From assembly GCA_964016885.1 (NCBI GenBank), contig OZ024754.1, forward strand, positions 11,904,001-11,968,000: a stretch of 64,000 nucleotides of DNA. The letters are read 5' to 3'. The first letter of the stretch is position 1. Each line of letters starts with the position of its first letter. A program made the translations under genes and the position numbers. Source of the DNA: Eledone cirrhosa. Taxonomy: Eukaryota. The notes under the pieces were generated by a model. The model did not search any database and was not told the DNA's origin. It saw only the letters and a program-made list of their open reading frames with translations. Positions 14,035-64,000 of this stretch are shown here, one piece after another.

Positions 14035-14403
14035 TACCCATCTGCCAGATAGTTGAACGTTCGAAAGTATATACTTTCCTTATGAAAATTAACGGCTGAG
14101 CAGCCTAATTTGCATATTGAGTGAGTTAAATCGGTCAGGCATACCGAAAACGATAAATTGAAACAAAATGAAAACGAAATTTCATTTCTCACTCTTAGTA
14201 TGGCACTTACTTAAATGTAAGTATGCATGTATACGTACATACATATATGTATACAGACGTACAGTAGCATGCACATATATATATATATATACACATATAT
14301 ATACATATGCATACAGGTACACATACATATATGCACGTATCAGTTTAGCGGCGCTAACGTCGCTTTGTTCGTTTGTAAACAAACTTGTGCTTTCAACAAA
14401 TTT

Positions 14404-14617
14404 ACTTGTGCTTTCAACAAATTTATTTTCTTCACAAAATCCAAAAAGAATTTTTTTCCAGATTAGAAAAAATTTTTTTCCTTAGAAAAAATTATTTTAT
14501 AAAAACCAACAACTTAATTTATAAAATAATTTTTTCTAAGGAAAAAAATTTTTTCTAATCCGGAAAAAAATTCTTTTTGGATTTTGTGAAGAAAATAAAT
14601 TTGTTGAAAGCACAAGT
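14404..14617. repeat. A/T-rich fold-back, about 100-bp arms, abutting the 466-bp array
   Basis: ACTTGTGCTTTCAACAAATTT...AAATTTGTTGAAAGCACAAGT; 21-bp duplication at the left junction. Confidence 0.9.
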
Positions 14618-14643
14618 GAAGCCATTTTTTCTTCCCCCCTGTC

Positions 14644-18452: not shown

Positions 18453-18761
18453 AAATGATAGTAAGAGAATACACAACCAAATTCTTGAAAAAATATTTAT
18501 TGGTTTACAATTGTTTCAAAGGCCAGACCATAATTCGATCCATAAAAATAAAACCTATCAATTTTTGAATCAATAGGTCCATTTTCTTGGTTACTTTCAA
18601 TGTTCACTTGTCCTGCACTTAATACGCATTGAGCAGACTGTCCTCTTCACTACAGACTTATAATTCTCACCAATAATCTCTAATCTCTCCTTGATATATA
18701 TATATATATATATATATGAGAGTATTGAAGTTTGCTTGAAGCATTGTGGAACAATAAGTAA

Positions 18762-19439
18762 ATATCTTTAAGTCGTTTGGAAGCCTCGACAATGCAAATG
18801 GGTAAATCTCCGGGTAACAAGGTCCGGTGGTGGAGAGAGAGATGTAAGTGGGTGTACGTTGAGATGCGTGGTGTGTATAAGATGTGTGAGATGTGTAGAA
18901 TGAAGGGAAGAGTATAAAGGATAAAAATAAAAATAACAACACAAGAGAGAGTTACCTTTGGAGAGATTTAATAGTCCCTATATATTTCGGATTCACATCC
19001 ATCAACTGGGGTTTTTTTCCGGGGTGGGGGAAAAGGTTGTCTGTCGGACAAGTCCGGAACGCGTCCTTCGCTGTTTGTTGTTTTGAATATCTCAATATTC
19101 AAAATATCTCGATATTCAAAACAACAAACAGCGAAAGACGCGTTCCAGACTTGTCCGACAGACAACCTTTTCCTCCACCCCGGAAAAAACCCCAGTTGAT
19201 GGATGTGAATCCGAAATATATAGGGACTATTAAATCTCTCCCAAGGTAACTCTCTCTTGTGTTGTTATTTTTATTTTTATCCTTTATACTCTTCCCTTCA
19301 TTCTACACATCTCAAACATCTTATACACACCACGCATCTCAACGTACACCCACTTACATCTCTCTCTCCACCACCGGACCTTGTTACCCGGAGATTTACC
19401 CATTTGCATTGTCGAGGCTTCCAAATGACTTAAAGATAT
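18762..19439. repeat. Near-perfect about 680-bp palindrome (about 330-bp arms) with hammerhead-like motif
   Basis: Arms are reverse complements with only a few mismatches; centre about 19095-19105. Confidence 0.95.
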
Positions 19440-19604: not shown

Positions 19605-19949
19605 TTATGTAATAAACAACATAAGGCAATTATATCATTTACCAGTGGTTTCTTAAAAGCAAAAAATTTTGCTTTCAATCATCAGAATGAAAAAATCCTG
19701 GTGTATTTATTTTAAAAACAAAAATGCAATCTATATGAAAGTGAGGCATATAGATTTTTGTTTTTAAAATCCAACGTCAATAAATACACCAGGATTTTTT
19801 CATTCTGATGATTTAAAGCAACATTTTTTGCTTTTAAGAAACCACTGGTAAATGGAATAATTGCCTTATGTTGTTTATGACATAACTATTAAGCTCTGTT
19901 ACCTACATAGAGCACTCTTTTTTCCTGGACTTTTCCGACGCAATTACTT

Positions 19950-19950
<1 letters not shown>
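19605..19950 (+). mobile_element. Hammerhead-bearing fold-back element, same family as 12061-12335
   Basis: Inverted arms spanning 19605-19885; (TA)n flanks. Confidence 0.75.
19799..19856 (+). ncRNA. Type-I hammerhead ribozyme motif (inverted copy at 19635-19690, minus strand)
   Basis: ttcatt-CTGATGA-tttaaagcaa cattttt tgcttttaa-GAAA-CCACTGG-TA-aatgga. Confidence 0.8.
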
Positions 19951-19992
<42 letters not shown>

Positions 19993-27162: not shown

Positions 27163-28453
27163 CAGGGTGCGGACGATATTTGTTCGCAAGATTACTGTCT
27201 AGGAAAAAATAACACAGTAGTTTTATTTTTTAAGATATATTTATCAAACTTGGGTCAGTTTGTCTTCATGACTTGTTCTTTCGATCTCACTTGATAAATC
27301 CGTCATTGGCTTTGATGATGGCCTCAAGGCGGCCTCGGAACTGGCTACAGGCCTTCGTCACTGTTCCCCGACTTAGGCCCCTAAAGGCACTTGTGATCCT
27401 GGCCTTCAGATCGTCTTTCGTATTGCAGCTAGATCTGTTGGTGTCTCGTTCCACTGCGCCCCACACAAAGAAGTCGAGGGGGTTGCAGTCAGGCGAGCTG
27501 GGAGGCCAGATGTCAGGTGAAGTGTGGTCGAAGGCTTGGGTCTTTCGGCTGGTATGGCAGGGCGCCGAGTCTTGTTTCCACACGTACGGCCTACCTGCAG
27601 CTACCTGGTCGATCCAGGGCTTTACTACCTCGCTCAGAACGCAGATGTAGCCATCGGTGTTCAGCTTGAGGCCCTCAGGGAAGAAGTGAGGTGGCACGAC
27701 GTCACTTTGACTGCTGACGTCACCTTGACTGCTGACGACACCTAAGACCAATGTTGTCGCTGGAAACTTTGTCTGCATGACTCTAGGCACGTCTTTGGAT
27801 GAGACAGCGAGCCACCTATTGTTCTGGGAGTTATCTTCTGGTCTTGGCAGAAGTTTTTTCTCGTCGGAGAAAAACCACAGCATATCTGGCTCCAGTGGGT
27901 GTTTCAACTTGTTGATCAGCTTCATTGTGTGCTTCAGTCGCTTTTCTTGCATCGTCTTTGACAGAAATTGTCCTTTCCTCATCTTGTATGAAATGTAGCG
28001 AATGTCTTCATGTACCACCAGCCTAATGAGCTTTTCATCCACGCCTTTCTCCCTTGCAATGGCACGCATCGACTTGCTAGGTTCATTGTTGATGATATCC
28101 TGAACTCGGGCGTTCTGAAGGCGTCAGATCGTCGATCATGTGTTTTCCTCGCTGATGTTGCTTCGTAGTCGAATCCTGAATCTTCCAATACCTTTCTGAC
28201 CTTTTCCACCATTCTCCTGCTGACGCTGAGAAAGTCTGAAATTTCCTTATTTGTCCTCCCGGCGCGGATTCCAAGTAGAACTCTGTGTCTCTTCCACAAA
28301 TTTGGAGCTTCAAAATTATTCTTAATCAATTATTCTGAAAATAAATAATGGAAATATAGTCACTGTTTTTATGAAGACAAGAGTGACAACGGAAGTAAAA
28401 AAAATTTGCATAAAATTAGCAGTTGAAAATTGCGAACACATATCGTCCACACC

Positions 28454-28994: not shown

Positions 28995-29370
28995 ATGTGG
29001 GAACTCGGGTCTTCTGTATTACTGCGTAACACCAGAGGTCACGGTCCTGTGTCATCGCCTTTGAGAGGTGCAATTGGGCAACGTCAGTTTTTATCACCAT
29101 ATCCCAGGTCTTCTTGGGTCTCCCCACTCCAAGGCTTCCATCAACTTCTAGTGCTCTGCCCCTTTTTATGCAGCTGTCATCCTTCATACACATCACATGT
29201 CCATATCAACGCAATCTCCTCTCCTGCACACAACTCTTATGCTTAGCCTCTCTCTCAATTCGTTTATGCTTTGCCGTTCGCGTATATTACTATTACACAT
29301 CCACTGGAGCATGCAAGCTTTGTTTCTTTCTGATCTACACAAGTCTTCTGCACACTACGACCAGGTCTCA
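28995..29370 (-). mobile_element. RTE LINE 3' fragment
   Basis: MKDDSCIKR..GVGRPKKTWD. Confidence 0.85.
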
Positions 29371-30275
29371 CTACTGTATGCTGATGATCTAGTACTTCTA
29401 GCAGAATCAGTAGAGGAGCTAGAGAAGAAATTCTGGCTATGGAAACAGCAGTTAGAATCAAGAGGACTGAGAGTGAGCCTAGCAAAGACTAAAGTGTTGA
29501 TAAGTAGGGAAGAGGACAAAACTCTGATTCCATCAGGGAAATGGCCATGTTCGATATGTAGAAAAGGAGTTGGTATAAACTCTATAGAATGTACACAATG
29601 CATATCTTGGGTACACAAGAAGTGTAGTGGGACAGCAGGCAAACTAACAGGAAGGGAAAACTTCATATGCAGTAATGTTCAGGGAAATTTGATAGTAGAA
29701 GTGTCAGTGATAGGCACATTTTTCAAATGCAGGTAGGATCTATAGAGGTGGTTGATAGCTTCCGATACCTAGGTGATCAGATTAGCAAGGGAGGGGGATG
29801 CTCCATGGCCATAGTATCTAGAATAAGGACAGGATAGAAGAAGTTTAGGGAGCTACTTCCTCTGTTGATAATGAAAGGTTTCTCCTTATGAATGAAAGGT
29901 CGGTTATATGATGCCTGCATGAGATGCACGATGCTGCATGGTAGTGAGACATGGGCTGCAACTGCGGAGGATATGTGACGGCTGGAGAGAAATGAAGCAA
30001 GCATGCTCCGATGGATGTGTAATTTCAATGTGCATAAACAACCAAGCATAGACGAGTTGAGAGAGAAACTTTGTATAAGAAGGATAAACTGTAGTGTGCG
30101 GGAGAGAAGACTGCATTGGTATGGCCATGTGATGTGTATGGAAGATGACCGTTGAGTTAAGAAGTGCCAAGAAATCCTGGTGGAAGGATGATGCAGTAGA
30201 GGAAGACTACGAAAAACATGGGCAGAGGTGGTGAGAGCTGAAGGTTACAGAGGAGATGACGAAGGACCACCATGA
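29371..30275 (+). mobile_element. RTE LINE fragment, degenerate, fused head-to-head to the preceding fragment
   Basis: LLYADDLVL, PHD-like CSIC..C..C..H..C, YLG; internal stops. Confidence 0.88.
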
Positions 30276-30640
30276 AATTTTAGGATCTTGGCATGTTTGA
30301 AAGGATCCTATTATGGATTGGCAGTATCGGTAGAGCATCAGACAACATGCTTTGTGACATAGTCCTTAGTTCAACTCCCGCTGAGGTTAGCTTTGCCTTT
30401 CATCCTCGCAAGGTCGATAAAATAAAGTACCAGTATTGTGCTGGGGGGTTGATTTAATCGACTTTCACCTTCCCTAAATTTGTTGGCCTTCTGCCTTAAT
30501 CAGAAACCAGTTATATTATATCTTCAATGCTTCAACTACATTATATAGGAGATAAACATGTTTCATCTACCTGACACCCACCTCACAACTTTACCTTTCT
30601 CTTTATCGACCGCTGATTTCTGCCTTTGTGGGTATTCTTA

Positions 30641-31897
30641 CCGGACTTACATGTTGTTATTGATGGCATTCAACTGTTTTAACAGCTGTTGCTTGCATTC
30701 CCAGACTTACATGTTGTTATTGATGGCATTCAACTGTTTTAACAGCTGTTGCTTGCATTCCCAGACTTACATGTTGTTATTGATGGCATTCAACTGTTTT
30801 AACAGCTGTTGCTTGCATTCCCAGACTTACATGTTGTTATTGATGGCATTCAACTGTTTTAACAGCTGTTGCTTGCATTCCCAGACTTACATGTTGTTAT
30901 TGATGGCATTCAACTGTTTTAACAGCTGTTGCTTGCATTCCCAGACTTACATGTTGTTATTGATGGCATTCAACTGTTTTAACAGCTGTTGCTTGCATTC
31001 CCAGACTTACATGTTGTTATTGATGGCATTCAACTGTTTTAACAGCTGTTGCTTGCATTCCCGGACTTACATGTTGTTATTGATGGCATTCAACTGTTTT
31101 AACAGCTGTTGCTTGCATTCCCAGACTTACATGTTGTTATTGATGGCATTCAACTGTTTTAACAGCTGTTGCTTGCATTCCCGGACTTACATGTTGTTAT
31201 TGATGGCATTCAACTGTTTTAACAGCTGTTGCTTGCATTCCCAGACTTACATGTTGTTATTGATGGCATTCAACTGTTTTAACAGCTGTTGCTTGCATTC
31301 CCAGACTTACATGTTGTTATTGATGGCATTCAACTGTTTTAACAGCTGTTGCTTGCATTCCCAGACTTACATGTTGTTATTGATGGCATTCAACTGTTTT
31401 AACAGCTGTTGCTTGCATTCCCAGACTTACATGTTATTGATGGCATTCAACTGTTTTAACAGCTGTTGCTTGCATTCCCAGACTTACATGTTGTTATTGA
31501 TGGCATTCAACTGTTTTAACAGCTGTTGCTTGCATTCCCAGACTTACATGTTGTTATTGATGGCATTCAACTGTTTTAACAGCTGTTGCTTGCATTCCCG
31601 GACTTACATGTTGTTATTGATGGCATTCAACTGTTTTAACAGCTGTTGCTTGCATTCCCGGACTTACATGTTGTTATTGATGGCATTCAACTGTTTTAAC
31701 AGCTGTTGCTTGCATTCCCAGACTTACATGTTGTTATTGATGGCATTCAACTGTTTTAGCAGCTGTTGCTTGCATTCCCGGACTTACATGTTGTTATTGA
31801 TGGCATTCAACTGTTTTAACAGCTGTTGCTTGCATTCCCAGACTTACATGTTGTTATTGATGGCATTCAACTGTTTTAGCAGCTGTTGCTTGCATTC
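30641..31897. repeat. 60-bp minisatellite, 21 near-identical copies
   Basis: CC(A/G)GACTTACATGTTGTTATTGATGGCATTCAACTGTTTTAACAGCTGTTGCTTGCATTC; one unit has a 3-bp deletion. Confidence 0.97.
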
Positions 31898-31946
31898 AAG
31901 TTTTCAAATTATTCCTATAAATAAAAATGTCACTGTTTTCTTCTAG

Positions 31947-33477: not shown

Positions 33478-33508
<31 letters not shown>

Positions 33509-33735
33509 GCAGAGGTTATATTTAATTTGTTGGGATTCAACAAGCTTAAAAAATTTTTATAACTGATATAAAGCACTCAACATTGAGTGGAGTAAATATA
33601 CTTTTACATACTCAATCATAACTTTCTATCACCCTCAATAAATATAATATCTCCACTCTCCAGGAAGCTCCAACCGGTAAGGTTGTCTTTTTTTAAGGGT
33701 ATGTCAATATTTATTTATAAAACTAATCTGTATTG

Positions 33736-33798
33736 TATTTTATCTGATGAAAGCACACCATAATTTGCCTTGGTGGCCCTTGAAATATGTATAAAATA
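33736..33798 (+). ncRNA. Type-I hammerhead motif in element 33510-33840 (family of 58800-59145)
   Basis: tattttat-CTGATGA-aag..cacca...tggtg..ctt-GAAA-TATG-TA-taaaata. Confidence 0.6.
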
Positions 33799-33836
33799 AA
33801 TATGGTTTTATAAATATAGTTTCTATTTGTTAATAT

Positions 33837-33867
<31 letters not shown>

Positions 33868-33990
33868 GAAGATAGACATAGAATATTCGAAAATATTCTG
33901 TATGTTTATAATAAACATTTTGAAGACCTAATCGCTATAGAATAGAATACGTCACGTATTACAATTAGATTCTCGATAAAAGCAAGGGAA

Positions 33991-34033
33991 GTAACCTACG
34001 CGTTTCATTCTTATTAGAAATCTTCAGGATTAC
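33991..34033 (-). ncRNA. Minimal type-I hammerhead ribozyme
   Basis: Reverse complement of 34499-34541; partial copy at 34301-34331. Confidence 0.88.
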
Positions 34034-34498
34034 ATATCCAGTGCTTTTATCGAGAATGACACAGCTAGAGACTTATAGAATACTTAGCTGTGTACAGGAA
34101 CTGGTTTGAAAGAGCGGTTGCCGGTCCGGCAGAAATTAGAAATTGGAATAAATGCTCTGAAATAGCGATATATATGTGAAGATAGACATAGAATATTCGA
34201 AAATATTCTGTATGTTTATAATAGACATTTTGAAGACCTAATCGCTATAGAATAGAATACGTCACGTATTACAATTAGATTCTCGATAAAAGCAAGGGAA
34301 GTAACCTACGCGTTTCATTCTTATTAGAAATTTCTAATAAGAATTTCTAATTTCTAATAAGAATTTCTAATAAGAATTTCTAATAAGAATTTCTAATTTC
34401 TGCCGGACCGGCAACCGCTCTTTCAAACCAGTTCCTGTACACAGCTAAGTATTCTATAAGTCTCTAGCTGTGTCATTCTCGATAAAAGCACTGGATAT

Positions 34499-34541
34499 GT
34501 AATCCTGAAGATTTCTAATAAGAATGAAACGCGTAGGTTAC
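34499..34541 (+). ncRNA. Minimal type-I hammerhead ribozyme
   Basis: GTAATC-CTGAAGA-T-TTCT aata AGAA-T-GAAA-CGCG-TA-GGTTAC; palindromic ACGCGT stem III, GUA site. Confidence 0.9.
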
Positions 34542-34721
34542 TTCCCTTGCTTTTATCGAGAATCTAATTGTAATACGTGACGTATTCTATTCTATAGCGA
34601 TTAGGTCTTCAAAATGTTTATTATAAACATACAGAATATTTTCGAATATTCTATGTCTATCTTCACATATATATCGCTATTTCAGAGCATTTATTCCAAT
34701 ATATATATATATATATATATA

Positions 34722-34772
<51 letters not shown>

Positions 34773-38044: not shown

Positions 38045-39050
38045 CATCATCATCATCATCATCATCGTTTAACGTCCATCTTCCACGCTTGCATGGGTTT
38101 GGATGGGAATTTTCCCACTTGAGGCAAGATTGGTTGTCTTGCTCGTATAGGACTGTCTGGCGGGTTTTCTACGGCTGGATGCCCTTCCTAACACCAACCA
38201 CGTTTACAGTGCGGACTGGGAGGTTTTTACCGTGTTACCTACACGGCCACATTACAGCGTGGACTGTGTGTTTTTTTGTCGTGACACCTACACGACCTCA
38301 TTTATTTCGGACTGGATGTTGTGGTACCGACATAACTTTACATTGAAAGGGGTGGTGTGGATGGGGTGGGGGGTGGGGTGGGACGGGGGTGTATTTTTGT
38401 TAAGAGGTGCCTACTGACTGTAGGTTTCGCTTTGTACTTAGGCAAGGCGGGTCTTCTGTATTACTGTGTAGCGCCAAAGATCTCGGTCCAGTGACATTGT
38501 CTTGGAGAGGTGTAAGTGTGTGAGGTCGGAATTTATCAAGTTGTCCCAGGTTTTTCTGGGTCTGCCTACTCCATGGCTACCGTCTATTTTTATTGCCCTG
38601 CACTTTTTTATACAGCTGTCGTCTTTCATGTACATCACGTGACCATACCAACGTAGTCTTCTCTCGAGTAAACAACATCTGATCCCTCTTATTCCTAATT
38701 TCTCCCTTAGTTCATTTATGCTTTGCCGTTCACGTATATTACTATTACACATCCAGCGGAGCATGCAAGCTTCGTTCTTCTTCAGTCTGCGTATATCCTC
38801 TGCACACAATGCCCAGGTCTCACTGCCATGTAACATTGCTGTTCGTATGCAGGCATCATACAGCCTGCCTTTCATTTTTAGAGAGAAACCTTTAGTGGCC
38901 AATAGTGGTATAAGCTCTCTGAACTTTTTCCATCCCGTTCTGTCTCTAGCTACTGTACTTTCAGAGCACCCTCCACCACTGATGATTTTGTCACCCAGGT
39001 AACGGAAGGTGTCCACTATTTCTATAGGACCATCTGTGCAATGGAATCTG
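38045..39050 (-). mobile_element. RTE LINE 3' part with UTR
   Basis: ORF 38438-39055 closely matches the C-terminus of 4614-6581; (CAT)n tail. Confidence 0.93.
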
Positions 39051-39548
39051 TTCAATTATTATATATATATATGTAATGTTTAATGTTTTGAATTTTTTTC
39101 CATAGAAAAGAGATTTGTTTCCATGAAAGAAAGTTTGCTCACTGAATTTAGATAACAACTATAGTAAAATATATGTGTATAGATTTAGAAAAGTCTTGCA
39201 TATGTTCATTGTTCTACTTACAAATTGGTGAAGGCGTGTAGCTTAGTGGTTCGGGTGTTTGGCTCATAAGCATAAGATTGTGTGATTCCTAGAGGCACAT
39301 TGTGTCCACATGTTGCTCCAGTCAACTCAGCTGGAGGAAATGAGCTTTACCTCTAATTATGGGGCCAGCCTCGTCATACACTGTATGATGCTGAATCTCC
39401 CTGAGAACTATGCTAAGAGTGCCTGAATCTCTGGAAAGCTCAACCACTCACACTATAACATGAAGTGTACCTGTAATTCAAAGGGCCAGCATTGGCATAC
39501 ACCTTGTTTTTTCTTATTAATGATTCTAATTTTTCTCATAATTTCCAG

Positions 39549-43625: not shown

Positions 43626-43700
43626 CTATCGTTGGTTTATTTTAATCCAAATACCATTTTCAGCAGCAAGAAAAAAGTGACTTACAAAGTTTATGTTTTC
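43626..43700 (-). CDS. Cytochrome P450 clan 3 (CYP3A-like), last exon
   Basis: atttgtag acceptor; ENINFVSHFFLAAENGIWIKINQR-TAG; AATAAA downstream at 43536-43541 (-). Confidence 0.85.
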   Translation of the reverse strand, partial: ENINFVSHFFLAAENGIWIKINQR

Positions 43701-43806
43701 CTACAAATAAAAGAAAACAGCACAGTGGAGTTAAGAAGACATTCTCATATTATTTCCTTATATATATATATATATATACATACATACACACACATATATA
43801 TATGTG

Positions 43807-43838
<32 letters not shown>

Positions 43839-44789
43839 ATCATCGTCATCACCGTTTTACATCCGTTCTTCCATGCTAGCATGGGTTAGACGGGTTGTCC
43901 TGTTGTTGGCAGTGTCCGGTCGGCTGACCTTGTCTTGCTCATACGGGAACTGATTCTGGCTTGATTTCTATAGCTGGATGCCCTTCCTAACACCAACCTC
44001 ATTTACAGTGAGTGCTGGGTGCTTTTTTTCTGTGGCGCCTACACGTCCACTTTACAGTGAGTGCTGGGTGCTTTTTTTCTGTGGCGCCTACATGTCCACT
44101 TTACAGTGTGGGCTGGGTGCTTTTTTTTGCTCCTCTCCTGCACACAGCATTTAATTCCTCTTATGCTCAGTCTCTCAAATATATATATATATATAATCCT
44201 TTGGGTAATGTGTTGAGGAAGGATAAATGTGATTGAGTGAGAAGATTGACAGGAATAGAACCACTAATAATGAATGTTGTGAAAAGAAATGAAATGAGAT
44301 GGTTGGGTCATGTGTTGAGGAAGGATGAAAGTGACAGGGTGAGAAGAGTGATTGAAATGAATGTGGAGGGAAGTAAGTAAAGGTGAAGACTCCCCCCCCC
44401 CCCCCCCTAAAAAAAAGACATAGTTATAGATGATGGAGGAGGAAATGAAGAAAATCAATCTTATCGACACCAGCACATATTTTTTCAAGTCTGGTACTAT
44501 TTTTTATCAATCTTTTTTTGGTGAACTGCTAAGTTACAGGACATAAAATTAGACACAGACACAAATGTAAATATAGACATGGACACACATATATGACAGA
44601 CTTCTGCAGGTTCCACTTACCAAATTATGCTCAAGATATTGGTGAAACCAAGGCTATAGTAGAAGTTTTTTTTCCAAGGTTCCGTGCAGCATGACTAAAT
44701 CCAGAACCTTGTGATTGCGAACTGAACTCTATAACCACACAGACATATCTGCACCTGTAAGTTTCTGTTTTAAAAACTAATTGTTTTAA

Positions 44790-45110
44790 AGTGCACAGCT
44801 TGGAGATCAGAGAGTCACTCCAGGTAGAGCCATTACTTCTCTGAATTGAGAAATCACAGTTCTGATATTATGGGCATGTGGTTAGAATGTCTCAGGAGAG
44901 AATCACTGGACAGATTTTACAGGCGAAACCAACTGGCAGGAGACCCAGGAGTAGACCCCAAGCAAGATGGTTGGATAACATCCATGAGCTTGGTTGGTCA
45001 TGCTTGGGGATCCAGCCAGATCAATTGGAGACAGTTGATTCTGACAGGACCCACTGGAAGAAGTGTTTGAAGACTCTGCCCTGACAACACTCCCAAGAAG
45101 AAGAAGAAGT
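44790..45110 (+). mobile_element. RTE-like LINE 3' fragment with (GAA)n tail
   Basis: GHVVRMSQERITGQILQAKPTGRRPRSRPQARWLD. Confidence 0.75.
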
Positions 45111-45159
45111 AATCAGCTACTTTCAGAAATATAAAACCAAATAAATACAGTAAACTCAC

Positions 45160-45322
45160 ATCGGTCTTGAATGATTTTGTAAATTCATATTTCTTAACAA
45201 GTCGAGCCATTGCTAATTTCAACTCTAAACGTGCCAATTTCATTCCCAGACATATTCTTGGTCCTGCACCGAATGGTATATAAGCATAAGGGTGAATTAT
45301 CTCTTTTGATTCAGGTGAGAAT
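45160..45322 (-). CDS. Cytochrome P450, heme-binding exon
   Basis: FSPESKEIIHPYAYIPFGAGPRICLGMKLARLELKLAMARLVKKYEF (FxxGxRxCxG); phase 2 to 0. Confidence 0.97.
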
Positions 45323-46347
45323 CTGAATAAGAAAACATATATTTAAGTACAGCCAAATGTTAGGAAAAGGGATCATAAGCTCAAAATATCATGAAATATA
45401 AAATAAAAAATTAAACTCTTATTTTGTTTGTTCTACTTACTTTTTCACTCTCACATTTCTAATTTGCATTGCTTTTTCAAAACAATAATAACCACATTTT
45501 TCAAACGACTATGTTTTATTTTTTGTTTATTTGATATAATAAATTCTTTTTAAGCTTATTTTTTTATATCCGAACTTCATTTGAATATATAAAATTTAAT
45601 TAGTGTAAATAAAGGCACCATAAGCAATACTAACATGCTTCTTTAAGAATCAACAAATGTTGGTTTGTCCCCCTCACATTTTTAAGGCAAATGAGACCCC
45701 TGCTCTCAATGCTTCAGTTTAATGTTGAGATTATAAAAAATTATATATAACTAAAATTCTGCTCAAATAGAAACAAATCTAAATATCTAAATTAGTGTTT
45801 CTAATTAAAGAATAAGAAACAATCAACCAATTAAGTTCCCACAACTGGTGCAGTTAATTGTTGGGGTGTCACTCTAGATTTTTACTGTGTGTCTATCTTG
45901 ATATTTCAATGGGCCTTAGAAGTACTTGGCGGGGCCCATCTCATAACTAGTGCAGCCAGTTGTTGGGGTGGCACTCTAGATTTTCACTGTGTGTCTATCA
46001 TGCTTAGAAGCTAATAAGATTTAGAAGTACTTGGTGGGGCCCATCTCCTCACCAAACATCCAGTTCTTCACTAAATTTAGCCTGCCACCACAAGCAGTTA
46101 TTGGGATGTGGCTCAAAAATGTCCCGGAGCCAAAAGTGAATGTTTGGTGAGAACCGGTGTGCTTGTCTTCCCCGGTGTAGAGTAGAGAAAGCTGGAACAA
46201 GTACCATAAAGTATTCTATCCGATGTTCTAACGACTCGGCCATTTTTCCATCTATCCAGAAGCGCTGTGGATGAAAATAATTACATATTTGATATTTTCC
46301 TTTTTTTTTAGGGTTAGGTTTGAAGAAATAATAATAATTAACCTTAC

Positions 46348-46485
46348 CGTTCGGGTCTGAACTGTTCAGGTTGTGGCCAGTATTCAGGGTCATGATGTAA
46401 GGGGTAGACTGATAAACTTATATCTGTGTCCTTTGGAAATGTCCAACCATTTACTTGGACATCGTTTTTTACCTCTCTTTGAATC
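46348..46485 (-). CDS. Cytochrome P450, PERF exon
   Basis: IQREVKNDVQVNGWTFPKDTDISLSVYPLHHDPEYWPQPEQFRPER; phase 2 to 2. Confidence 0.97.
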
Positions 46486-46518
46486 CTGGAATATATGTGG
46501 AAGGTGCTGAGTGAAAGT

Positions 46519-46790
46519 GGAGGCACGTGGCCTAGTGGTAAGGGTGATGGACATACAATCATAATGTCGTGGGCTCGATTCCTAGGTTGCGTGTTGTGTT
46601 CTTGAGCAAAACACTTCATTTCACGTTGCTCCAGTATACTCAGCTGAAAATGAGTACCAGCAATAGCTGGAGGTTTAACCCTGCGATGGACTGGCGTCCT
46701 GTTCAGGGGGAAGTCTTGTACTCTCAGTCGCTTCACGCCATGAAACCAGGATAAGCACCAGCCTAATGGGCCTTCTGGCTTAGCACAGAC
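46519..46790 (+). mobile_element. tRNA-derived SINE, family B
   Basis: GGAGGCACGTGGCCTAGTGGT head, B-box-like GCTCGATTCC, core TCTTGAGCAAAACACTT; related heads at 4430-4560, 39230, 39705, 53745-53885 and 62560-62680. Confidence 0.8.
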
Positions 46791-47208
46791 TTTAGACTTT
46801 TTAGACTGAATGAAAAGGGAAGGCATGTGGTTAGGGTGTTCGACTCATGATTGTGAAGTCATATGTTCGAACCCCGGGCTGTGTGGCACATATTGCTATA
46901 ACAATTTACAGGCGAGAAAATAAAATTTACCTGTAATTCAAAAACGCAGACCTATCCCACATTGACACCATGTTTTGCAGCATAGAGTTACGACCCTTTA
47001 CGATCTGAGTTCAAATCTGGCTAAGGTTAACTTTGCCTTTCACCGATAAAATAAAGTACCGGTAATGCACTGGGGTAATTGCTGTCCTTGTGCCACAAAT
47101 TGGAAACAATTATATCATACTGAATCATCTTGAGAATTGTGTCTGCGAAATGTGCAGCCACTTGCTCGCTAACTTCACAAGCAGACTTACAATATAAACA
47201 CATATATA

Positions 47209-47464
47209 CAGTAGAACCTCTCATAACGAACAATTTTTCCAAACATAAAACGTCTCGTTTCATGAACACTCAAGCCGACGACAACGGTTGGCAACAAGCT
47301 ACGAGTATCGGCGAGAAATCGTCACTTGCTGTGTAGTTGGTTACTATGGTGATATCTATCTGTCTTTCTCACACAGTCACTCTCACACTGTTTTGGTTTA
47401 CAAACATTTCAGGTGACGAACAGCCTTCGTAAACGAATTAAGTTCGTGGACTGAGGTTCCACTG
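47209..47464. mobile_element. Tigger/pogo-type MITE
   Basis: TA-CAGTAGAACCTC ... GAGGTTCCACTG-TA. Confidence 0.8.
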
Positions 47465-47509
47465 TATGTAAAAACCAAAATAAGACAGAATGTGAAAGAA
47501 AGCACGTAC

Positions 47510-47598
47510 CTAATGGCTGATGGATACATACGTAAGGTTTCGTCTATGCACATATCTAAATATGGAAGTCTTTGTATATTGTTGTAATCAGGTCTTTC
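47510..47598 (-). CDS. Cytochrome P450, K-helix exon
   Basis: ERPDYNNIQRLPYLDMCIDETLRMYPSAI (ExxR); phase 0 to 2. Confidence 0.97.
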
Positions 47599-47710
47599 CT
47601 GCATATAAGATAATATGATATCTCCATATAATATAATAATTTTTAATTTAGGCACCAGGCCTGCAATTTGTGGGGAGAGGAAGTTATATACATATGTATA
47701 TATATATATA

Positions 47711-48141
47711 TCATCATCATCATCATCATCATCATCGTTTAACGTCCATGTTCCACGCTTGCATGGGTTTGGACGGGAGTTTTCCCACTTGAGGCAAGAG
47801 TGGTTGTCTTGCTCGCATAGGACTGTCTGGCTGGTTTTCTACAGCTGGATGCCCTTCCTAACACCAACCACATTTACAGTGTGGGACTGGGAGGTTTTTA
47901 CCATGTTACCTACACGGCCACATTACAGCGTGGACTGTGTGTTTTTTTGTCGTGACACCTACACGACCTCATTTGTTTCGGGCTGGATGTTGTGATACCA
48001 ACATAACTTTACATTGAAAGGGGTGGTGTGGATGGGGTGGGGGTAGCGGGACGGGGGTGTATTTTGTTAGAGGTGCCTACTGACTGTAGTAGGTTTCACT
48101 TTGTACTTAGGTAAGGCGGGTCTTCTCTATTACTGTGTAGC
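47711..48141 (-). mobile_element. RTE LINE 3' UTR fragment
   Basis: Matches 6545-6978; further UTR-only copies at 11865-12040, 12350-12597, 35372-35485 and 51250-51598. Confidence 0.88.
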
Positions 48142-48193
48142 ACATATATTATATTATATAGTATAAGGACGATTTGTTATGTCTTCATTGAGT

Positions 48194-48279
48194 AGTGACA
48201 CGTGTTTCGCTATTGATGAGCTAAAGGTTCGATGTGTATCGATCTAGCCCGACTCTGGAATCAAAAGCTCGTCGGATCT
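48194..48279 (-). ncRNA. Hammerhead-like motif (core CCGACGA), weak stem I
   Basis: CCGACGA-gcttttgat...atcaatagc-GAAA-CACGTG-TC; truncated relative CTGATGAGCTTTTGATTCCAGA at 49704. Confidence 0.5.
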
Positions 48280-48312
48280 CTGCTGTGAACCTTCAGTAAC
48301 TGCACGTTACAT

Positions 48313-48346
<34 letters not shown>

Positions 48347-48533
48347 CATATGTATATACACAGTTCAAGAGTAACCAATCTTAAAGAGAGAGATGGAGAT
48401 AGGAGAGGAGATAGGAATACTGCTTGATTATGGCTGACAATTGATACACCCAGGGCACCATAGTGAAATACCAATATATGGAACATTACATTATGTAACA
48501 TTCTCTCCTTATTTTAATTTATATTCCTTTGAA

Positions 48534-48652
48534 GTTCCGATGAGCCGCTCTGTTTTTAAATATGTTAATTATTTTCAACTGGACCAGATCAATTATGATA
48601 TATAGTCATTTGATCCAGAAATATTATATGGAGTAGCGAAACAATTGTAAAC
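48534..48652 (+). ncRNA. Type-I hammerhead motif with long stem II (core CCGATGA)
   Basis: gtt-CCGATGA-gccgctct...ggagtagc-GAAA-CAATTG-TA-aac. Confidence 0.6.
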
Positions 48653-48891
48653 GGACATTATTATTATTATTAATATTATTATTATTCTCTACATTCCTTA
48701 CATCAAACTAAAATATGTTGACAATCTTTTAATAATGTCTTCCTTGTGAAATTTGTGGTCTTGTTTTGCTTAACTAATGAATATATATATATATATATAT
48801 GTAAAAGGTAAACAGAAATAACAACATAATCGGTACAGTATATGGAAGGTATATATATATTAAGTTAACACTTGATATAGCAGGAAGAGGG

Positions 48892-48927
48892 TCTTAACAT
48901 TTCGGACGCTAGTCCTTCATCAGAAGA
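48892..48927 (-). ncRNA. Minimal type-I hammerhead motif
   Basis: tctt-CTGATGA-A-GGAC tagc GTCC-GAAA-TG-TT-aaga; within a repeat of about 160 bp (48800-48957) also found at 58163-58318. Confidence 0.72.
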
Positions 48928-49451
48928 AAGAATGAGAAATAAAATAGATTGAGGGAACGGGCGGGATGGAATTGGAAAAAATGTCTTTAGATAAAAATAA
49001 CAGGTTCATTCATGTTGACATCATCATATATATATATATAATTGTTTCTACTTTAGGCACAAGGCCAGCAATTACCCAGTGCATTACTGGTACTTTGTTT
49101 TATCGACCCCGTAAGGATGAAAGGCAAAGTCAACCTCGGCGGGATTTGAACTCAGATCGTAAAGGGACGTAACTATGCTGGAAAGCATGGCGTCCGACCC
49201 TCTACTGATACTGCCAATCCACGCCCTTTATATATATATAATATTTGTAAATCGAACTTCAGCTGCAGTACAGCAGGTACTATTCGATTTGTTTTGAGGC
49301 AATCATGAAGCACTCAATGGATCGAAAGTTAAAAACAAACATTAAGTCCAGAGTTAAACACCATAGTTATAAAATGTGAAACCAAGATAACTGACCGAAG
49401 GTACAAACTATACATATAACAAAATAACAATATATACAAAAAGGTTTATAT

Positions 49452-49668
49452 CAGTGGCTCCCAAACTTTTCCAATTTTTTTCTCAGCGGTCTCCTTAACA
49501 TTTTTTGGATGCCTCGCGGTCCCCTATCGTATTATGGCAGCATTTCCAAAATTTTTCAAAGACAAACTTTTATGAAATTCATGACAATTCTACTGCTTTC
49601 TGAAGAGGTTTTGCTAATTGGATATGCGTTTTTATAGGAGACCGCGGACCCCAGTTTGGGAACCACTG
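49452..49668. mobile_element. hAT (Charlie-like) MITE
   Basis: TIR CAGTGGCTCCCAAACT / AGTTTGGGAACCACTG; perfect 8-bp TSD GTTTATAT. Confidence 0.92.
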
Positions 49669-50136
49669 GTTTATATGATTCCATTATTGCGCTGACAGAA
49701 GGCTGATGAGCTTTTGATTCCAGATGTATGTGTATAAACTCACCTTTCTTTATTTCCTTCTCCCAATCACTTCTGTGCGCCTGCACACTTCTACTTGTCC
49801 CGCACCACATTCAATCTTTTCTATATTTCATCCACCTGTCACTCACCTTGTGGATTCTCTCTGTTGACCACTGGCCTCTCTCCTCTGAGACAATATTGTT
49901 TTACCTTTATCATAGCTATGATTAGCTTTCTATGTAGGACAGAAACCACAGCTTGAGGTCCACTATCCCATTATTTTCTTTTCTTTGTTTTCCAGGTTAA
50001 ACTAGTTGGTCCTTAGCGCTAACGAACTGTACGTAGCTGGTATGGTGCCATTGTAGTAACTAGCCTTAATTATATTCAAACATGCTCTACGGATGTGAGT
50101 TGTTCTATATATTGGATATTTTAACCTAATTATTAC

Positions 50137-50376
<240 letters not shown>

Positions 50377-50512
50377 CCTCAGATCATTGAAGCTCACGGT
50401 GGAGATGACGAGGGACCGTGACGAGTGGAGAGATGCTGTGCTGAATAAGACCCGTCCCACCCTTGCAAGCAGGGAAAAGCGGACGTAAAATGATGATGAT
50501 GATGATGATGAT

Positions 50513-50801
<289 letters not shown>

Positions 50802-50879
50802 TTACCCACTCTACTACCCTAAGTATTGAGTACTTTGGTGCGTTATGGTCCATCTGGTTGCTTACCACATTTCCTTCGT

Positions 50880-50981
<102 letters not shown>

Positions 50982-51050
50982 CTGATGGGGCATAAAAACA
51001 TTCACTAGTGATAAAACAATAGAACGCAGTGAATGTATTGAAAGTCATAC

Positions 51051-51208
51051 CTCAGCAAACACTGATACAATCTCTTGGTATAGCTTGTCTTGTATTTCAG
51101 GATGTACAGCGAGAGAATATGAGAGGAATGCTAGTGTAGTCGCTGTTGTTTCGTGGCCAGCTAACAGAAACAACACAGCTTGCGCGATTAACACATCGTC
51201 AGTCAAAC
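51051..51208 (-). CDS. Cytochrome P450, I-helix exon
   Basis: LTDDVLIAQAVLFLLAGHETTATTLAFLSYSLAVHPEIQDKLYQEIVSVFAE (AGxETT); phase 1 to 0. Confidence 0.97.
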
Positions 51209-51657
51209 CTACAGTAAAAAGAAGATAAATCATAATATAATAAAGGACAAAATACACCCCGTCCCGCCACCACTCCCACCCCATCCACACCACCCCGTTC
51301 TATGTAAAGTTATGTTGGTGCCGCGCCATCCAGGCCGAAACAAATGAGATCGTGTAGGTGTCACGACAAAAAAACACACAGTCCACGCTGTAATGTGGCC
51401 GTGTAGGCAACACGGTAAAAACCTCCCAGACCCACACTGTAAATGTGGTTGGTGTTAGGAAGGGCATCCAGCTGTAGAAAACCTGCCAGACAGTCCTATG
51501 CGAGCAAGACAACCACTCTTGCCTCAAGTGGGACTACCCCCGTCCAAACCCATGCAAGCGTGGAACACGGACGTTAAACGTTGATGCTGATGATGATGAG
51601 TGGAGGACTGCATTCTCAATATATTTCTTTTGTCCCGTTAGTAAAATAAGTTAGAAT

Positions 51658-52432
51658 ACGTTGAATAAATAATTGTTTCTACTTTTGGCACAAGGCCAGC
51701 AATTACCCAGTGCATTACTGGTACTTTATACGTTGAATAAATAATTGTTTCTACTTTTGGCACAAGGCCAGCAAATACCCAGTGCATTACTGGTACTTTA
51801 TACGTTAAATAAATAATTGTTTCTACTTTTGGCACAAGGCCAGCAATTACCCAGTGCATTACTGGTACTTTAAACGTTGAATAAATAATTGTTTCTACTT
51901 TTGGCACAAGGCCAGCAATTACCCAGTGCATTACTGGTACTTTATACGTTGAATAAATAATTGTTTCTACTTTTGGCACAAGGCCAGCAATTACCCAGTG
52001 CATTACTGGTACTTTATACGTTGAATAAATAATTGTTTCTACATTTGGCACAAGGCCAGCAATTTACCCAGTGTATTACTGGTACTTTATTTTATCGACC
52101 CCGAAAGGATGAAAGGCAAAGTTAACCTCGGCGGGATTTGAACTCAGAATGGCAAGGACTGTAACTCTATGCATCAAAGCATGGCGTCCAACCCTCTACC
52201 GATACTGCCAATCCTCACATTGAATAAATAATTGTTTCTACTTTTGGCACAAGGCCAGCAATTACCCAGTACATTACTGGTACTTTATTTTATCGACCCC
52301 GTAAGGATGAAAGGCAAAGTTAACCTTGGAGGGATTTGAACTCAGTCCGTAAAGGGACGTAACTCTATGCTAGAAAGCATGCCGTCCAACCCTCTACTGA
52401 TACTGCCAATCCACTGCCCTTGAATAAATAAT
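51658..52432 (-). repeat. Two tandem family-A SINEs plus a 5 x 72-bp tandem amplification of the SINE tail and target site
   Basis: Unit ACGTTGAATAAATAATTGTTTCTACTTTTGGCACAAGG...; TTGAATAAATAAT recurs as an apparent TSD at 52220 and 52420. Confidence 0.9.
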
Positions 52433-53126
52433 GAATGAATATTACATACTTTATGTACTAAATTTCGTAGCTGTTGATTAAACATAGATATTCTTATATA
52501 TAATGATTGCTTATTTTAAGATTAATTTCTTTTAAAATGTTCAAATGTCAACACTTCCGGTTAGCGTCCATTATATTATAACATTTGGATTGGCAGTATC
52601 GTTAGAGAGTCGGACACCATGCTTTGAAACATAGAGTTACGTCCCTTTATGATCTGAGTTCAAATCCCGCCGAGGTTGACTTTGCCTTTCATCCTTACGG
52701 GGTCGATAAAATAAAGTACCAGTAATGAACTGGGTAATTGCTGGCCTTGTGCCTAAAGTAGAAACAATTATATTATAACATTTATTACCTCGCTTATATA
52801 AATGTTCATATATTTCCGTCGCTAATTTTCTCCTAATGCAGTTTATATATAATATCGTCTTTTTTTAATGTATCATGAATTACTTTACTGATTACAGAAG
52901 AGAGTGTAACGCAGATTTCGTTCAATTTCTGTGCATATTCTCAATTACGAGTTTATTTGACATATCATATCTACTTGCATGTATATTTGCATATAATATC
53001 AATATGCACACTACACATGCTTGTTTTCTGTTAGTGTATCTAAGTATACCAGAGAGTGCTATTTCCATTTATCTTTGGGATTGGAAACTATTCATTTGTT
53101 AATTGGTGTGGATGTGTATGTGTGTG

Positions 53127-53352
53127 CAGGGGTGGTGGAAGCATTTCTGAATTAGGTGAGATAGGGTGGAGGGAAATTTAAACGATTTAGCTGTAGTGAT
53201 TAGTTTAGCTCTTTGCGCTCTAAAATGGTCAGAAAACTTGGATATATTGTAGCGCATACACAAATAGAAGTGTTTTGGTAGTTTGGAGTGAAAAATATAA
53301 TTATTGGTAGGGTGTCATAGCCCCCGCCCCTCCCCCAAATCCACCGCCCCTG
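53127..53352. mobile_element. hAT-like MITE
   Basis: TIR CAGGGGTGGTGGA / TCCACCGCCCCTG; TSD degenerate. Confidence 0.6.
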
Positions 53353-53400
53353 TTTGTATGGACACAGCCCCACTAGTAGTAAATATTGTAAATAATTTAC

Positions 53401-53479
53401 CAGATGTCCTTGTTCCCTTCTTATTTCTAGCTTCCTCTGCCTGGGCGTTGAGCATAGATTGGAGAATATCTTCTCTTTG
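53401..53479 (-). CDS. Cytochrome P450, H-helix exon
   Basis: ttttgcag acceptor; QREDILQSMLNAQAEEARNKKGTRTS; phase 0 to 1. Confidence 0.9.
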
Positions 53480-53886
53480 CTGCAAAAATATATCTCTTTC
53501 AGTTCTCGGAGTAATAATAATAATAATACTAATAATACTAATTCATTCATTCATCATTTCATTTTATGTCCGCTTTTTCCTGCTTGCAGGGGTGGGACGG
53601 GAACTGATTCTGGCTTGATTTCTACAGCTGGATGCCCTTCCTAACACCAACCTCATTTACAGTGAGTGCTGGGTGCTTTTTTGCCGTGGCACCTCCACGA
53701 CCACTTTGCAGTGGAATGATATGGACCCCAGTCCCTATCATCTCATTTCTGCAGCTGAGTAAACTGGAGCAATGTGAAATAAAGTGTCTTGCTCAAGGAA
53801 ACAACACATCACCCAGTCTGAGAATTGAACTCACAACTTTTCGATTGCAAGGCCAATGCTCTAACCACTAAGCCATGTGCCTCCAC

Positions 53887-53966
<80 letters not shown>

Positions 53967-53973
<7 letters not shown>

Positions 53974-55230
53974 TGAAGGAATTGTTAAGAACTGAATACA
54001 TTCGGAGAGTAAGAGCGTATTGAAGTCACATCTGAACAGCAGAAATGCCATAAGCGCAGTAAATTCCCGAGCTGTGTCTATTATTAGGTACAGTGCGGGA
54101 ATTCTGAGATGGAATGTTGCTGAACAAAAAGAAATGGATAGGAAGACTAGGAAGCTATTGACTATCTACAACATGTTCCACAAGAGGAGTGATGTCGATA
54201 GACTCTACCTAAGGAGATCTGAGGGTGGAAGAGGTCTTATCAGCATAGAGGACTGTGTTCAGATGGAGAAAAACAACCTATACAAATACGTGACCTATAG
54301 TAAGGAGCCAATGCTCAGAACTGTACTGAAGGAGGGGACAGTAGGCCAGGGGATGTCCAAGGAGGAAATAACATCAAGGAGGAAGAGCAGCCTTAAGGGA
54401 AAATCCCTTCATAGTACTTTCTTTGAGAAAACTGAATTTAGAGATCCACAGACATGGAACTGGTTGAGAAGAGGAGACCTCAAAAAGGCTACAGAAGGAA
54501 TGCTAATGGCTGCGCAGGAGCAGGCCCTCAAAACGAAGTGGTTGAAGCACCATATCTACAAGGAGGAGGCTAGCCCACTGTGCAGGATCTGTGGAGAGAG
54601 AGAGGAGACTGTGGCTCACATTGTGTCCGAATGTAAACACCTAGCCCAGACCCACTATAAGGGCTGGAGACACGATGTGATGGGCAGGGTGATCCACTGG
54701 CACCTGTGCAAAGTAAACAATTTACCACATTCTGAGAAATGGTATGAGCATAGGCCAGAGGCGGTGATGGAGAACAATCAGGTGAAGGTGCTGTGGGATT
54801 TTAGGATACAGACGGACAAAAAACTGGAACACAATAGACCTGACCTGGTGGTTGTGGACAAAGAAAAAAGATCGTGTCTGATTGTGGATGTGGCCTGCCC
54901 GTTTGACACGAGAGTGCAAGAGAAGGAGAGGGAGAAAATTAACCGATACCAGGACCTAAAGTGGGAGGTGAAAAGGATTTGGAACTGCCATGAAGTCAAA
55001 GTGATCCCGATTGTCATAGGCGCACTGGGGACTATCTCCAAAAGTTTCCAGGGATGGTTAAAGAAAATCGGCCCCTTCACGCTTTTTGGAACGCTTCAAA
55101 AGGCATGCTTGCTTGGAACAGCAAGAACCCTCCGATACGTCCTGAATATCTGAGGCTGCAGGTAGTGGCTTGATATTCAATCCAACGGACTTTCCAGTTA
55201 ACCAACATCAATGACTGAGATTCAAGGAAT
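53967..55230 (+). mobile_element. R4/Dong-clade LINE, 5'-truncated, inserted in (TAA)n
   Basis: ORF 54020-55153: GGRGL, CRIC-x7-H-x4-C, RH, RPD..D..K restriction-like endonuclease; (AAT)n on both sides. Confidence 0.93.
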
Positions 55231-55264
55231 AACAACAATAATAATAATAATTATTATTATTATG

Positions 55265-63645: not shown

Positions 63646-63730
<85 letters not shown>

Positions 63731-64000
63731 ATATATAGTATATTTGATATATACGGTATGTTTAATTAAAAACATTTTGAAGACCATTCGTTATTCTCGG
63801 CAAAAACAAAGGGGAGCAATCGACAGTCCTGTTTTTTGCTCGTTAGCGATTATCAAGGCTACTCACCCCTTCGCTTCTGCCGAGAGTTATAGGAGACGGA
63901 TTCTTATAGAATTCCAGTAGTATTTAAGAGCTGACTAAACACAGCGGTTGCCGGTCCAGCAAAAATTAGGTATTAGTATTTGTGCTCTGAAATAGCGATG

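What the first reader, a model, noticed from the sequence alone, without database searches (positions are those of the whole stretch)
33867..34700. 310-bp hammerhead unit present as 1.5 tandem copies plus an inverted, circularly permuted copy
Seen: the unit repeats at 33867 and 34177 and breaks inside the second hammerhead (about 34331). Several AATTTCTAATAAG slippage repeats follow, then an inverted full unit that starts at the equivalent of about 34141, reads through the unit boundary and ends at about 34142. Inference: the read-through across the junction implies a circular or concatemeric template. The stuttered junction at the ribozyme stem II suggests RT template switching or self-priming during insertion. 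A diverged relative lies at 63770-64000.
Basis: partly seen in the sequence, partly recalled or inferred. Interest (0 to 1): 0.82.

Follow-up and report, generated by a model that had tools for sequence, protein, structure and literature searches.

The report
Octopus retrozyme with Penelope-style insertion
This 834-base non-coding insert in an octopus-like genome is built from a 310-base unit carrying a predicted self-cutting hammerhead RNA, laid head-to-head in a TA repeat the way Penelope-like jumping genes insert, so it is likely a new member of a known class of small parasitic retroelements (retrozymes); RNA circles and cutting were not tested.

Summary
The anatomy is real: a 1.5-unit arm (33867-34331, ribozyme sense on -), a 57-nt stutter filler and a one-unit inverted arm (34388-34700, sense +), between two (TA)n runs. 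Each 310-nt unit carries a type I hammerhead with the architecture described for animal non-LTR retrozymes. Variants in a second organism and a diverged copy at 63.7 kb mostly keep its pairs, but Rfam does not reach threshold. The layout is not special. Head-to-head arms, a one-sided 26-35-nt tail and a TA target are the published insertion signature of Penelope-like elements, and five more such inserts lie in this window. The outer ends seen sit at two fixed sites, so the 'permutation' likely reflects internal priming and variable 5' truncation rather than random starts. Both arms read through the cleavage site, so the template was multimeric or circular. The inverted arm is one turn long (310 +/- 3), which hints at a circle without proving it. 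The filler is fully templated from the two inner ends; end-joining repair or telomerase-like RT stutter both fit. Verdict: new member of a known kind, interest 0.33.

The parts
33841..33866 (.). Left (TA)n run, the target; merges with a TA-like stretch of the unit, so a target-site duplication cannot be read
33867..34176 (-). Left arm, full 310-nt unit; outer end at monomer position 130-139 (short, tail-less site)
33991..34033 (-). Complete predicted type I hammerhead; predicted cut between 33997 and 33996
34177..34331 (-). Left arm, half unit; 5'-truncated at monomer position 286; keeps stem II, GAAA, GUA site (34307/34306) and the 3' strand of stem I, lacks the 5' core strand; one private change at 34224
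34317..34344 (.). Perfect 28-nt palindrome centred on a shared AT at the inversion point
34332..34388 (+). 57-nt filler: 13+7+13+13+13, every base templated from stem II (position 286) or the 9-nt look-alike at position 164
34388..34700 (+). Right arm: one rotated unit, monomer position 163 round to 165 (310 +/- 3 nt)
34475..34563 (+). Extended helix I domain: perfect 16-bp helix 34475-34490/34548-34563, internal loops, then the ribozyme
34499..34541 (+). Complete predicted type I hammerhead: 6-bp stem I, CUGAAGA core, 4-bp stem II with U.U at its base and a 4-nt loop, GAAA, palindromic minimal helix III, GUA cut 34535/34536
34666..34700 (+). One-sided 'tail', 26-35 nt beyond the left arm's outer end (34675-34700 at the least)
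34699..34771 (.). Right (TA)n run
33501..33845 (+). Older, unrelated hammerhead-like insertion (family of 58.8 kb) in whose TA end the element sits
   Evidence: 82-83% identity to 58784-59146
63717..64000 (-). Diverged relative, same outer start next to a TA run, cut by the window end; homologous helix and hammerhead fold with U3/A8 and G12A core changes; upstream of the first P450 exon seen, probably intronic

Best explanation
This is a head-to-head insert of a 310-nt hammerhead-bearing non-coding unit in a (TA)n run, likely a non-LTR retrozyme copied into the genome by the reverse transcriptase and endonuclease of a Penelope-like element (PLE). Shown: unit length, head-to-head polarity, read-through of the cleavage site in both arms, two outer ends 26-35 nt apart, TA flanks, fully templated filler. 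Inferred steps: (1) source arrays elsewhere are transcribed into multimers, which may self-cleave as double hammerheads and be ligated into 310-nt circles; (2) a PLE protein cuts both strands of the TA run and primes two cDNAs from the two target ends at two fixed internal sites of the RNA (about positions 130-139 and 163-165), which gives the tail; (3) one cDNA runs 1.5 units, the other one unit, on an uncut multimer or a circle (about even odds); (4) the two inner ends, which finish in the same 9-nt word, are joined through a 2-3-nt AT overlap after several rounds of abortive, microhomology-primed synthesis (most likely polymerase-theta-type end joining, perhaps with later slippage). This copy is probably a dead end: it has no two consecutive intact hammerheads on one strand, and a transcript across it would form a hairpin of at least 287 bp.
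For: Hammerhead: 11 descriptor hits versus 0.03 in shuffles; architecture matches the canonical metazoan type I description (helix I 6 bp, helix II 4 bp, short palindromic helix III; PMC4209133 passages); weak helix III and a U.U at the base of helix II each have precedent in axolotl retrozymes (PMC7229834). A contig of run X4 (organism B) is 340 nt = 310+30, and its first and last 30 places are the same word in the window frame. 5 of its 7 differences fall in the ribozyme, and all 5 keep or gain a pair or lie in loop II or N7. In the 63.7-kb relative the 16-bp helix shows 2 double-sided changes, 3 changes to G.U and 1 mismatch, and the sense strand folds better than the antisense (-42.8 vs -35.4). 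The core shows C3/G8 to U3/A8 together; C3-G8 pairing is supported by double-mutant rescue in PMC11167929. PLE signature: partial tandem, adjacent inverted 5'-truncated copy, 30-40-bp tail and (TA)n targets (PMC8557442 passages); both strands cut and extended, two internal RT starts that define the tail (PMC11167929). Of 145 TA-bounded intervals tested, 8 rows passed, making 5 distinct palindromic inserts, all 5 with a one-sided tail of 44-90 nt. 9 of the 11 hammerhead hits lie in head-to-head palindromes. 5 of the 15 joints shown (52 in all) in runs X1-X3 switch from antisense to sense within the unit at varied inner points. The filler parses into 5-6 templated steps with 2-6-nt primers; alternating cis and trans templated extension is documented for polymerase theta (PMC4912351 passages). 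Retrozyme-PLE link: PMC7229834 and bioRxiv 10.64898/2026.07.22.740005.
Against: Rfam gives no hammerhead at gathering score; the best is Hammerhead_HH9 at 17.1 bits, E 0.45, against a threshold of 52. The hammerhead fold is not the predicted minimum (-24.0 vs -32.8 kcal/mol). The circular monomer folds well (z -4.0; 1 of 100 shuffles as low), but the antisense circle folds better (-79.9 vs -67.1), so this is not strand evidence. That none of the 5 X4 changes hits the core is not significant alone (P 0.15). No PLE protein was seen: Pfam on 133 of 147 candidate frames gave no GIY-YIG hit. The tails of the other inserts are longer (44-90 nt) than this one. The focal insert was not itself returned by the tail scan, because its tandem arm exceeds the offset limit. 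The five joints have short sides (20-28 nt) and two or three end in an internal hairpin, so they are weak. In one test only 1 of 9 predicted retrozyme dimers cleaved.
Confidence: 0.8

Rival explanations
1. Same element, but the template was a covalently closed 310-nt circle: the right cDNA stopped on meeting its own primer after one turn, and the left one rolled on by strand displacement.
For: The right arm is 310 +/- 3 nt; a random stop would land there about 2% of the time (7/310, my estimate). The X4 contig closes on itself at 310 nt. Retrozyme circles are shown in coral, mussel and axolotl, and circle-templated tandem cDNA is the published model.
Against: One case, noticed after the fact. 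The stop site is also one of only 3 repeated 9-mers in the unit and matches the other arm's end, so homology could have chosen it. A closed contig also arises from a tandem DNA array, and the kind of run X4 is not on record. In vitro, uncut RNA is the dominant PLE template.
Confidence: 0.45
2. The filler was made by the PLE reverse transcriptase itself, re-copying a 13-nt stretch of stem II up to a fixed template boundary, as telomerase does.
For: Read on the - strand the filler has cDNA polarity. The 13-nt runs all stop at monomer position 286, the nucleotide where the left arm also stops, although the template would go on into the core. PLE RTs share an ancestor with telomerase RT.
Against: The + strand repair parse is as short and uses longer primers for some steps; templated fillers occur at other centres without stem II; three identical 13-mers could be later slippage.
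Confidence: 0.25
3. One cDNA only: it folded back and copied itself (self-priming on an antisense template), giving the inverted arm.
For: Perfect palindrome at the inversion point; the right arm carries copy 1's letter at 33914; this is the hypothesis of PMC3846280.
Against: The tail, and the G at the position equivalent to 33866, are not in copy 1 and need an extra switch; in the five other inserts the tail has no second copy to come from. Copy 1's letter is also the family's.
Confidence: 0.2
4. The unit is the terminal repeat (pLTR) of an autonomous PLE, seen here only as truncated ends, not an independent retrozyme.
For: Same insertion signature; retrozymes are homologous to pLTRs.
Against: The units abut with no ORF between them; the X4 contig closes at 310 nt; the hammerhead is of the canonical kind, not the minimal PLE kind.
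Confidence: 0.1
5. Assembly or library artefact (fold-back chimera), or DNA-level rearrangement of a satellite.
For: Arms 99-100% identical; such structures are known to trouble assemblies.
Against: Unequal arms, unmirrored flanks, one private change, and older diverged inserts of the same plan nearby.
Confidence: 0.05

Closest known systems
Metazoan non-LTR retrozymes (Cervera and de la Pena 2020, PMC7229834, parts 2-4 of 6 read; Li et al. 2026, bioRxiv 10.64898/2026.07.22.740005, parts 1-3 of 5 read)
   Same: Non-coding tandem unit of 150-450 bp, GC below 50% (34.5%), one type I hammerhead per unit, weak palindromic helix III, self-paired predicted circle.
   Different: Sequence is lineage-specific; this copy has an inverted arm, a tail and a stutter filler, which the parts I read do not describe; expression, cleavage and circles are untested here; it fails Li et al.'s 'active' rule (two consecutive intact hammerheads).
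Insertion architecture of endonuclease-bearing Penelope-like elements (PMC8557442 and PMC3846280, passages; PMC11167929, parts 1-2 of 4)
   Same: Partial tandem, adjacent inverted 5'-truncated copy, head-to-head palindrome at the junction, one-sided tail, AT-rich or (TA)n target, hammerhead in the repeat.
   Different: No RT or GIY-YIG frame; target-site duplication unreadable; the partner PLE is not identified.
Polymerase-theta templated insertions at repair junctions (PMC4912351, passages; SD-MMEJ papers seen as search listings only)
   Same: Short direct and inverted copies of both ends, primed by 2-6-nt overlaps.
   Different: 57 nt with no untemplated base is long against the 7-bp median reported in vitro; the enzyme is inferred.
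Twin priming of LINE-1 (recalled; listings only)
   Same: Two target-primed cDNAs joined head-to-head.
   Different: Here the arms cover the same sequence, there is no poly(A), and the start sites are fixed.

Membership tests
Type I hammerhead ribozyme | Conserved core (CUGANGA, GAAA, UH) with stems I and II | tested here: met
   U.U at the base of stem II (A-U in X4)
Type I hammerhead ribozyme | Rfam hammerhead model at gathering score | tested here: not met
   none; HH9 17.1 of 52 bits, E 0.45
Type I hammerhead ribozyme | Structure kept across variants | tested here: met
   5 of 5 X4 changes in the ribozyme neutral or stabilising; double-sided changes in the relative, with 1 mismatch in the 16-bp helix and one each in stems I and II; only three sequences
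Type I hammerhead ribozyme | Self-cleavage at GUA | not testable with these tools
   needs an assay
Non-LTR retrozyme | Non-coding tandem unit 150-450 bp, GC < 50%, one hammerhead per unit, no LTR | tested here: met
   310 nt, GC 0.345; no frame of 70 aa or more passing my complexity filter lies over it
Non-LTR retrozyme | Multicopy, dispersed family | tested here: met
   relative at 63.7 kb; the whole unit covered by many variant contigs in X1-X3 (one sample) and one contig in X4; depth there is no copy number
Non-LTR retrozyme | Two consecutive intact hammerheads (the 'active' rule of Li et al.) | tested here: not met
   second hammerhead of the left arm is truncated at 34331; this concerns the copy, not the family
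Non-LTR retrozyme | Expressed as monomeric linear and circular RNA | tested here: inconclusive
   closed 340-nt contig in X4, run kind unknown
PLE-type insertion | Partial tandem plus inverted 5'-truncated copy, head-to-head | tested here: met
PLE-type insertion | One-sided tail of about 30-40 bp | tested here: met
   26-35 nt
PLE-type insertion | AT-rich or (TA)n target; target-site duplication | tested here: inconclusive
   TA runs on both sides; a duplication cannot be read inside them
Autonomous PLE | RT plus GIY-YIG open frame linked to the repeat | tested here: not met
   no such frame in the insert; no GIY-YIG hit in 133 of 147 frames scanned; the genome was not available

The most novel reading that the evidence does not exclude
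This insert records a PLE reverse transcriptase working on a ribozyme-made RNA circle: one cDNA stops after exactly one 310-nt turn, and the enzyme then re-copies a 13-nt template up to a fixed boundary, telomerase-style, before the two cDNAs are joined. Octopus genomes, dense with such inserts, would then hold a genome-wide readout of the missing reverse-transcription step of the animal retrozyme cycle.
Probability: 0.15. Interest if true: 0.68.

Novelty: new member of a known kind. Interest (0 to 1): 0.33.

Why it matters
The class is known, so the element alone is ordinary. Its use is as evidence. PLE mobilisation of animal retrozymes has been argued from shared ribozymes, co-occurrence and phylogeny, with the mechanism stated as open; here a retrozyme carries the PLE-specific tail and inverted arm at its own insertion. 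It also gives a cheap test of whether circles are the template: arm lengths across the genome should peak at multiples of 310 nt. I found no cephalopod retrozyme in the listings of two searches, but the supplement of PMC7229834, which lists invertebrate examples, could not be read.

Tried and rejected
Whole-genome copy survey: no genome is held. Sequencing runs: no RNA holder listed; the shares of 0.31-0.39 in 16 unlaid runs (X5-X20) are no evidence and may come from TA words. Laying 4 of 24 runs: all contigs, none listed spans the insert, and 34265-34366 is almost uncovered, which says nothing for or against the junction. Exact pattern scans found 0 matches in metagenome contigs and viral contigs. 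Earlier scan findings: nothing by place, sequence or the first word search. Rfam microRNA hits over the TA runs are chance. A two-strand cofold of the hammerhead did not give a clear double hammerhead and is not used. The automatic palindrome table was swamped by low-complexity rows at 50 kb and was replaced; there 3 of the 8 passing rows are nested versions of the 19.6-kb insert and were merged before counting 5. PMC5680766 passages added nothing. Rejected: viroid-like or viral origin (genome-embedded, PLE-type ends); random circular permutation; a role of stem II as the special cause of the stutter.

Full report
Setting. The window is microsatellite-rich animal DNA. An exon of its cytochrome P450 gene is 91% identical to a protein named from Octopus bimaculoides, so the host is likely an octopus. 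The gene lies on the - strand and its last coding exon is at 43629-43700, about 9 kb from the finding. No genome is held, so all copy-level evidence comes from the window and four laid runs.

Observation. Two copies lie 310 nt apart with 2 differences in 164 nt, and the second breaks at 34331. A 57-nt filler follows, then an inverted arm 34388-34700 that equals a rotated monomer, position 163 round to 165 counting from the cleavage site. The hammerhead reads on - in the tandem arm and on + in the inverted arm, so the 5' ends face inward and both 3' ends abut (TA)n runs. Unequal arms and unmirrored flanks argue against a fold-back artefact; no read confirms the junction directly.

The ribozyme. 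A type I descriptor finds it twice here and 11 times in the window, against 0.03 in 30 shuffles (descriptor written after seeing the motif). It has a 6-bp stem I, a 4-bp stem II with U.U at the base, and a palindromic minimal helix III, which matches the canonical metazoan type I that works best as a dimer (PMC4209133 passages; axolotl precedents in PMC7229834). Against: Rfam reaches only 17.1 of 52 bits, and the active fold is 8.8 kcal/mol above the predicted minimum. For: run X4 holds one contig with 7 differences, 5 of them in the 43-nt ribozyme (G.U to A-U and A-U to G.U in stem I, N7, U.U to A-U in stem II, loop II), none in the core (core avoidance alone P 0.15). The relative at 63717-64000 keeps the long helix through 2 double-sided changes and 3 G.U pairs, with 1 mismatch. 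It changes C3 and G8 together to U and A, and also carries G12A, which from recalled hammerhead chemistry should cripple it. Cleavage is untested.

The unit. It is 310 nt, 34.5% GC and non-coding; as a circle it folds at -67.1 kcal/mol (z -4.0, 1 of 100 shuffles as low), though the antisense circle folds lower. The X4 contig is 340 nt and covers 33947-34286, whose first and last 30 letters are identical. That is what a closed 310-nt cycle looks like in a 31-mer assembly (word size recalled); both an RNA circle and a tandem array give it, and the run's kind is not on record. These features meet the sequence definition of animal non-LTR retrozymes (PMC7229834; bioRxiv 10.64898/2026.07.22.740005).

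The layout. Partial tandem, adjacent inverted 5'-truncated copy, a 30-40-bp tail at one end and (TA)n targets are the published marks of endonuclease-bearing PLEs (PMC8557442; PMC3846280). A purified PLE protein cuts and extends both strands and starts at two internal sites that define the tail (PMC11167929). Here the left arm's outer end is at position 130-139 and the right arm's at 163-165, a tail of 26-35 nt, and the relative starts at the short site too. Of 145 TA-bounded intervals, 8 rows forming 5 distinct inserts are palindromes, all 5 with a one-sided tail of 44-90 nt, and 9 of 11 hammerhead hits lie in head-to-head palindromes. So the layout is the local norm. The apparent permutation follows from fixed internal priming and variable truncation. 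Five of 15 joints shown for X1-X3 switch from antisense to sense at varied points, weak support for the same plan in other copies. No partner PLE was seen in 133 of 147 frames scanned.

Template. Both arms cross the cleavage site (the left twice), which excludes a cleaved linear monomer. An uncut multimer is enough, and is the main PLE template in vitro. The right arm being one turn long (about 2% by chance, my estimate, after the fact) favours a circle, but its inner end is also the 9-nt word shared with the other arm's end, one of 3 repeated 9-mers in the unit. I put circle and multimer near even.

Filler. Every base is templated. Read on +, it alternates between copying the right arm's end and the left arm's own end, with 2-6-nt primers; read on -, it is repeated copying of 13 nt up to position 286, where the left arm also stops. 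The first fits polymerase-theta end joining (PMC4912351), and other centres in the window have templated fillers; the second would be telomerase-like stutter of the PLE RT. Later slippage may add to either. I favour repair (about 60%) over RT stutter (about 25%).

Fate of this copy. It lacks two consecutive intact hammerheads and would be transcribed into a long hairpin, so it is likely a product rather than a source (inference).

Verdict. Real; a new member of a known class, inserted in a known way. Its value is that it ties a retrozyme to the PLE tail signature at one locus and offers a countable test of circle-templated reverse transcription. Searches of the held library listed no cephalopod retrozyme and no paper on inverted retrozyme inserts; the supplement of PMC7229834 could not be read and may bear on both points. 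Interest 0.33.

Noticed in passing
window 13221-14385: A second retrozyme-like family: 2.5 head-to-tail copies of a 466-bp unit with no differences, two intact type I hammerheads on the - strand (cuts after 13997 and 13531), TA run at the left; the unit folds at -152 kcal/mol as a circle. It meets the two-hammerhead 'active' rule and is a better source candidate than the focal copy.
   Followed up: partly
window 7692-8076, 12062-12337, 18718-19435, 19605-19952, 58792-59141: Five head-to-head palindromic inserts between TA runs, each with a one-sided tail of 44-90 nt; three carry hammerhead pairs; 12 kb and 19.6 kb are one family; the tails at 7.7 kb and 18.7 kb share a 13-nt word.
   Followed up: partly
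window 14401-14620, 59294-59706, 59927-60208, 61713-61900, 12598-13085: Further palindromes of the same look; 14.4 kb abuts the 466-bp array through a 21-nt duplication; 59.5 kb has a templated centre filler and one hammerhead hit.
   Followed up: partly
window 33501-33845: Older hammerhead-like insertion of the 58.8-kb family directly left of the finding; the focal element sits in its TA end.
   Followed up: partly
window 43629-62910, - strand: Cytochrome P450 gene, at least eight exons matched to P0001; its first exons lie beyond the window end.
   Followed up: partly
window 51658-52776: Six or so 72-bp tandem units, two longer tandem copies and an inverted copy of a SINE-like repeat.
   Followed up: no
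window 1-579, 4557-6581, 29152-29736, 38438-39055, 53996-55599, 27287-28123: RT plus PHD-finger LINE fragments (Pfam), a frame with a weak zf-RVT hit and a 344-bp duplicated 3' end, and a mariner-like transposase frame (name recalled; no Pfam hit).
   Followed up: no
window 30549-31946 and 53814-53877: A 60-bp-period minisatellite with an open frame, and a marginal tRNA-like hit (29.1 bits).
   Followed up: no
run X4, contig over 33947-34286: 5 of the 6 non-private differences cluster in the 43-nt ribozyme (binomial P about 3e-4): the ribozyme varies more than the rest of the unit while keeping its pairs.
   Followed up: partly
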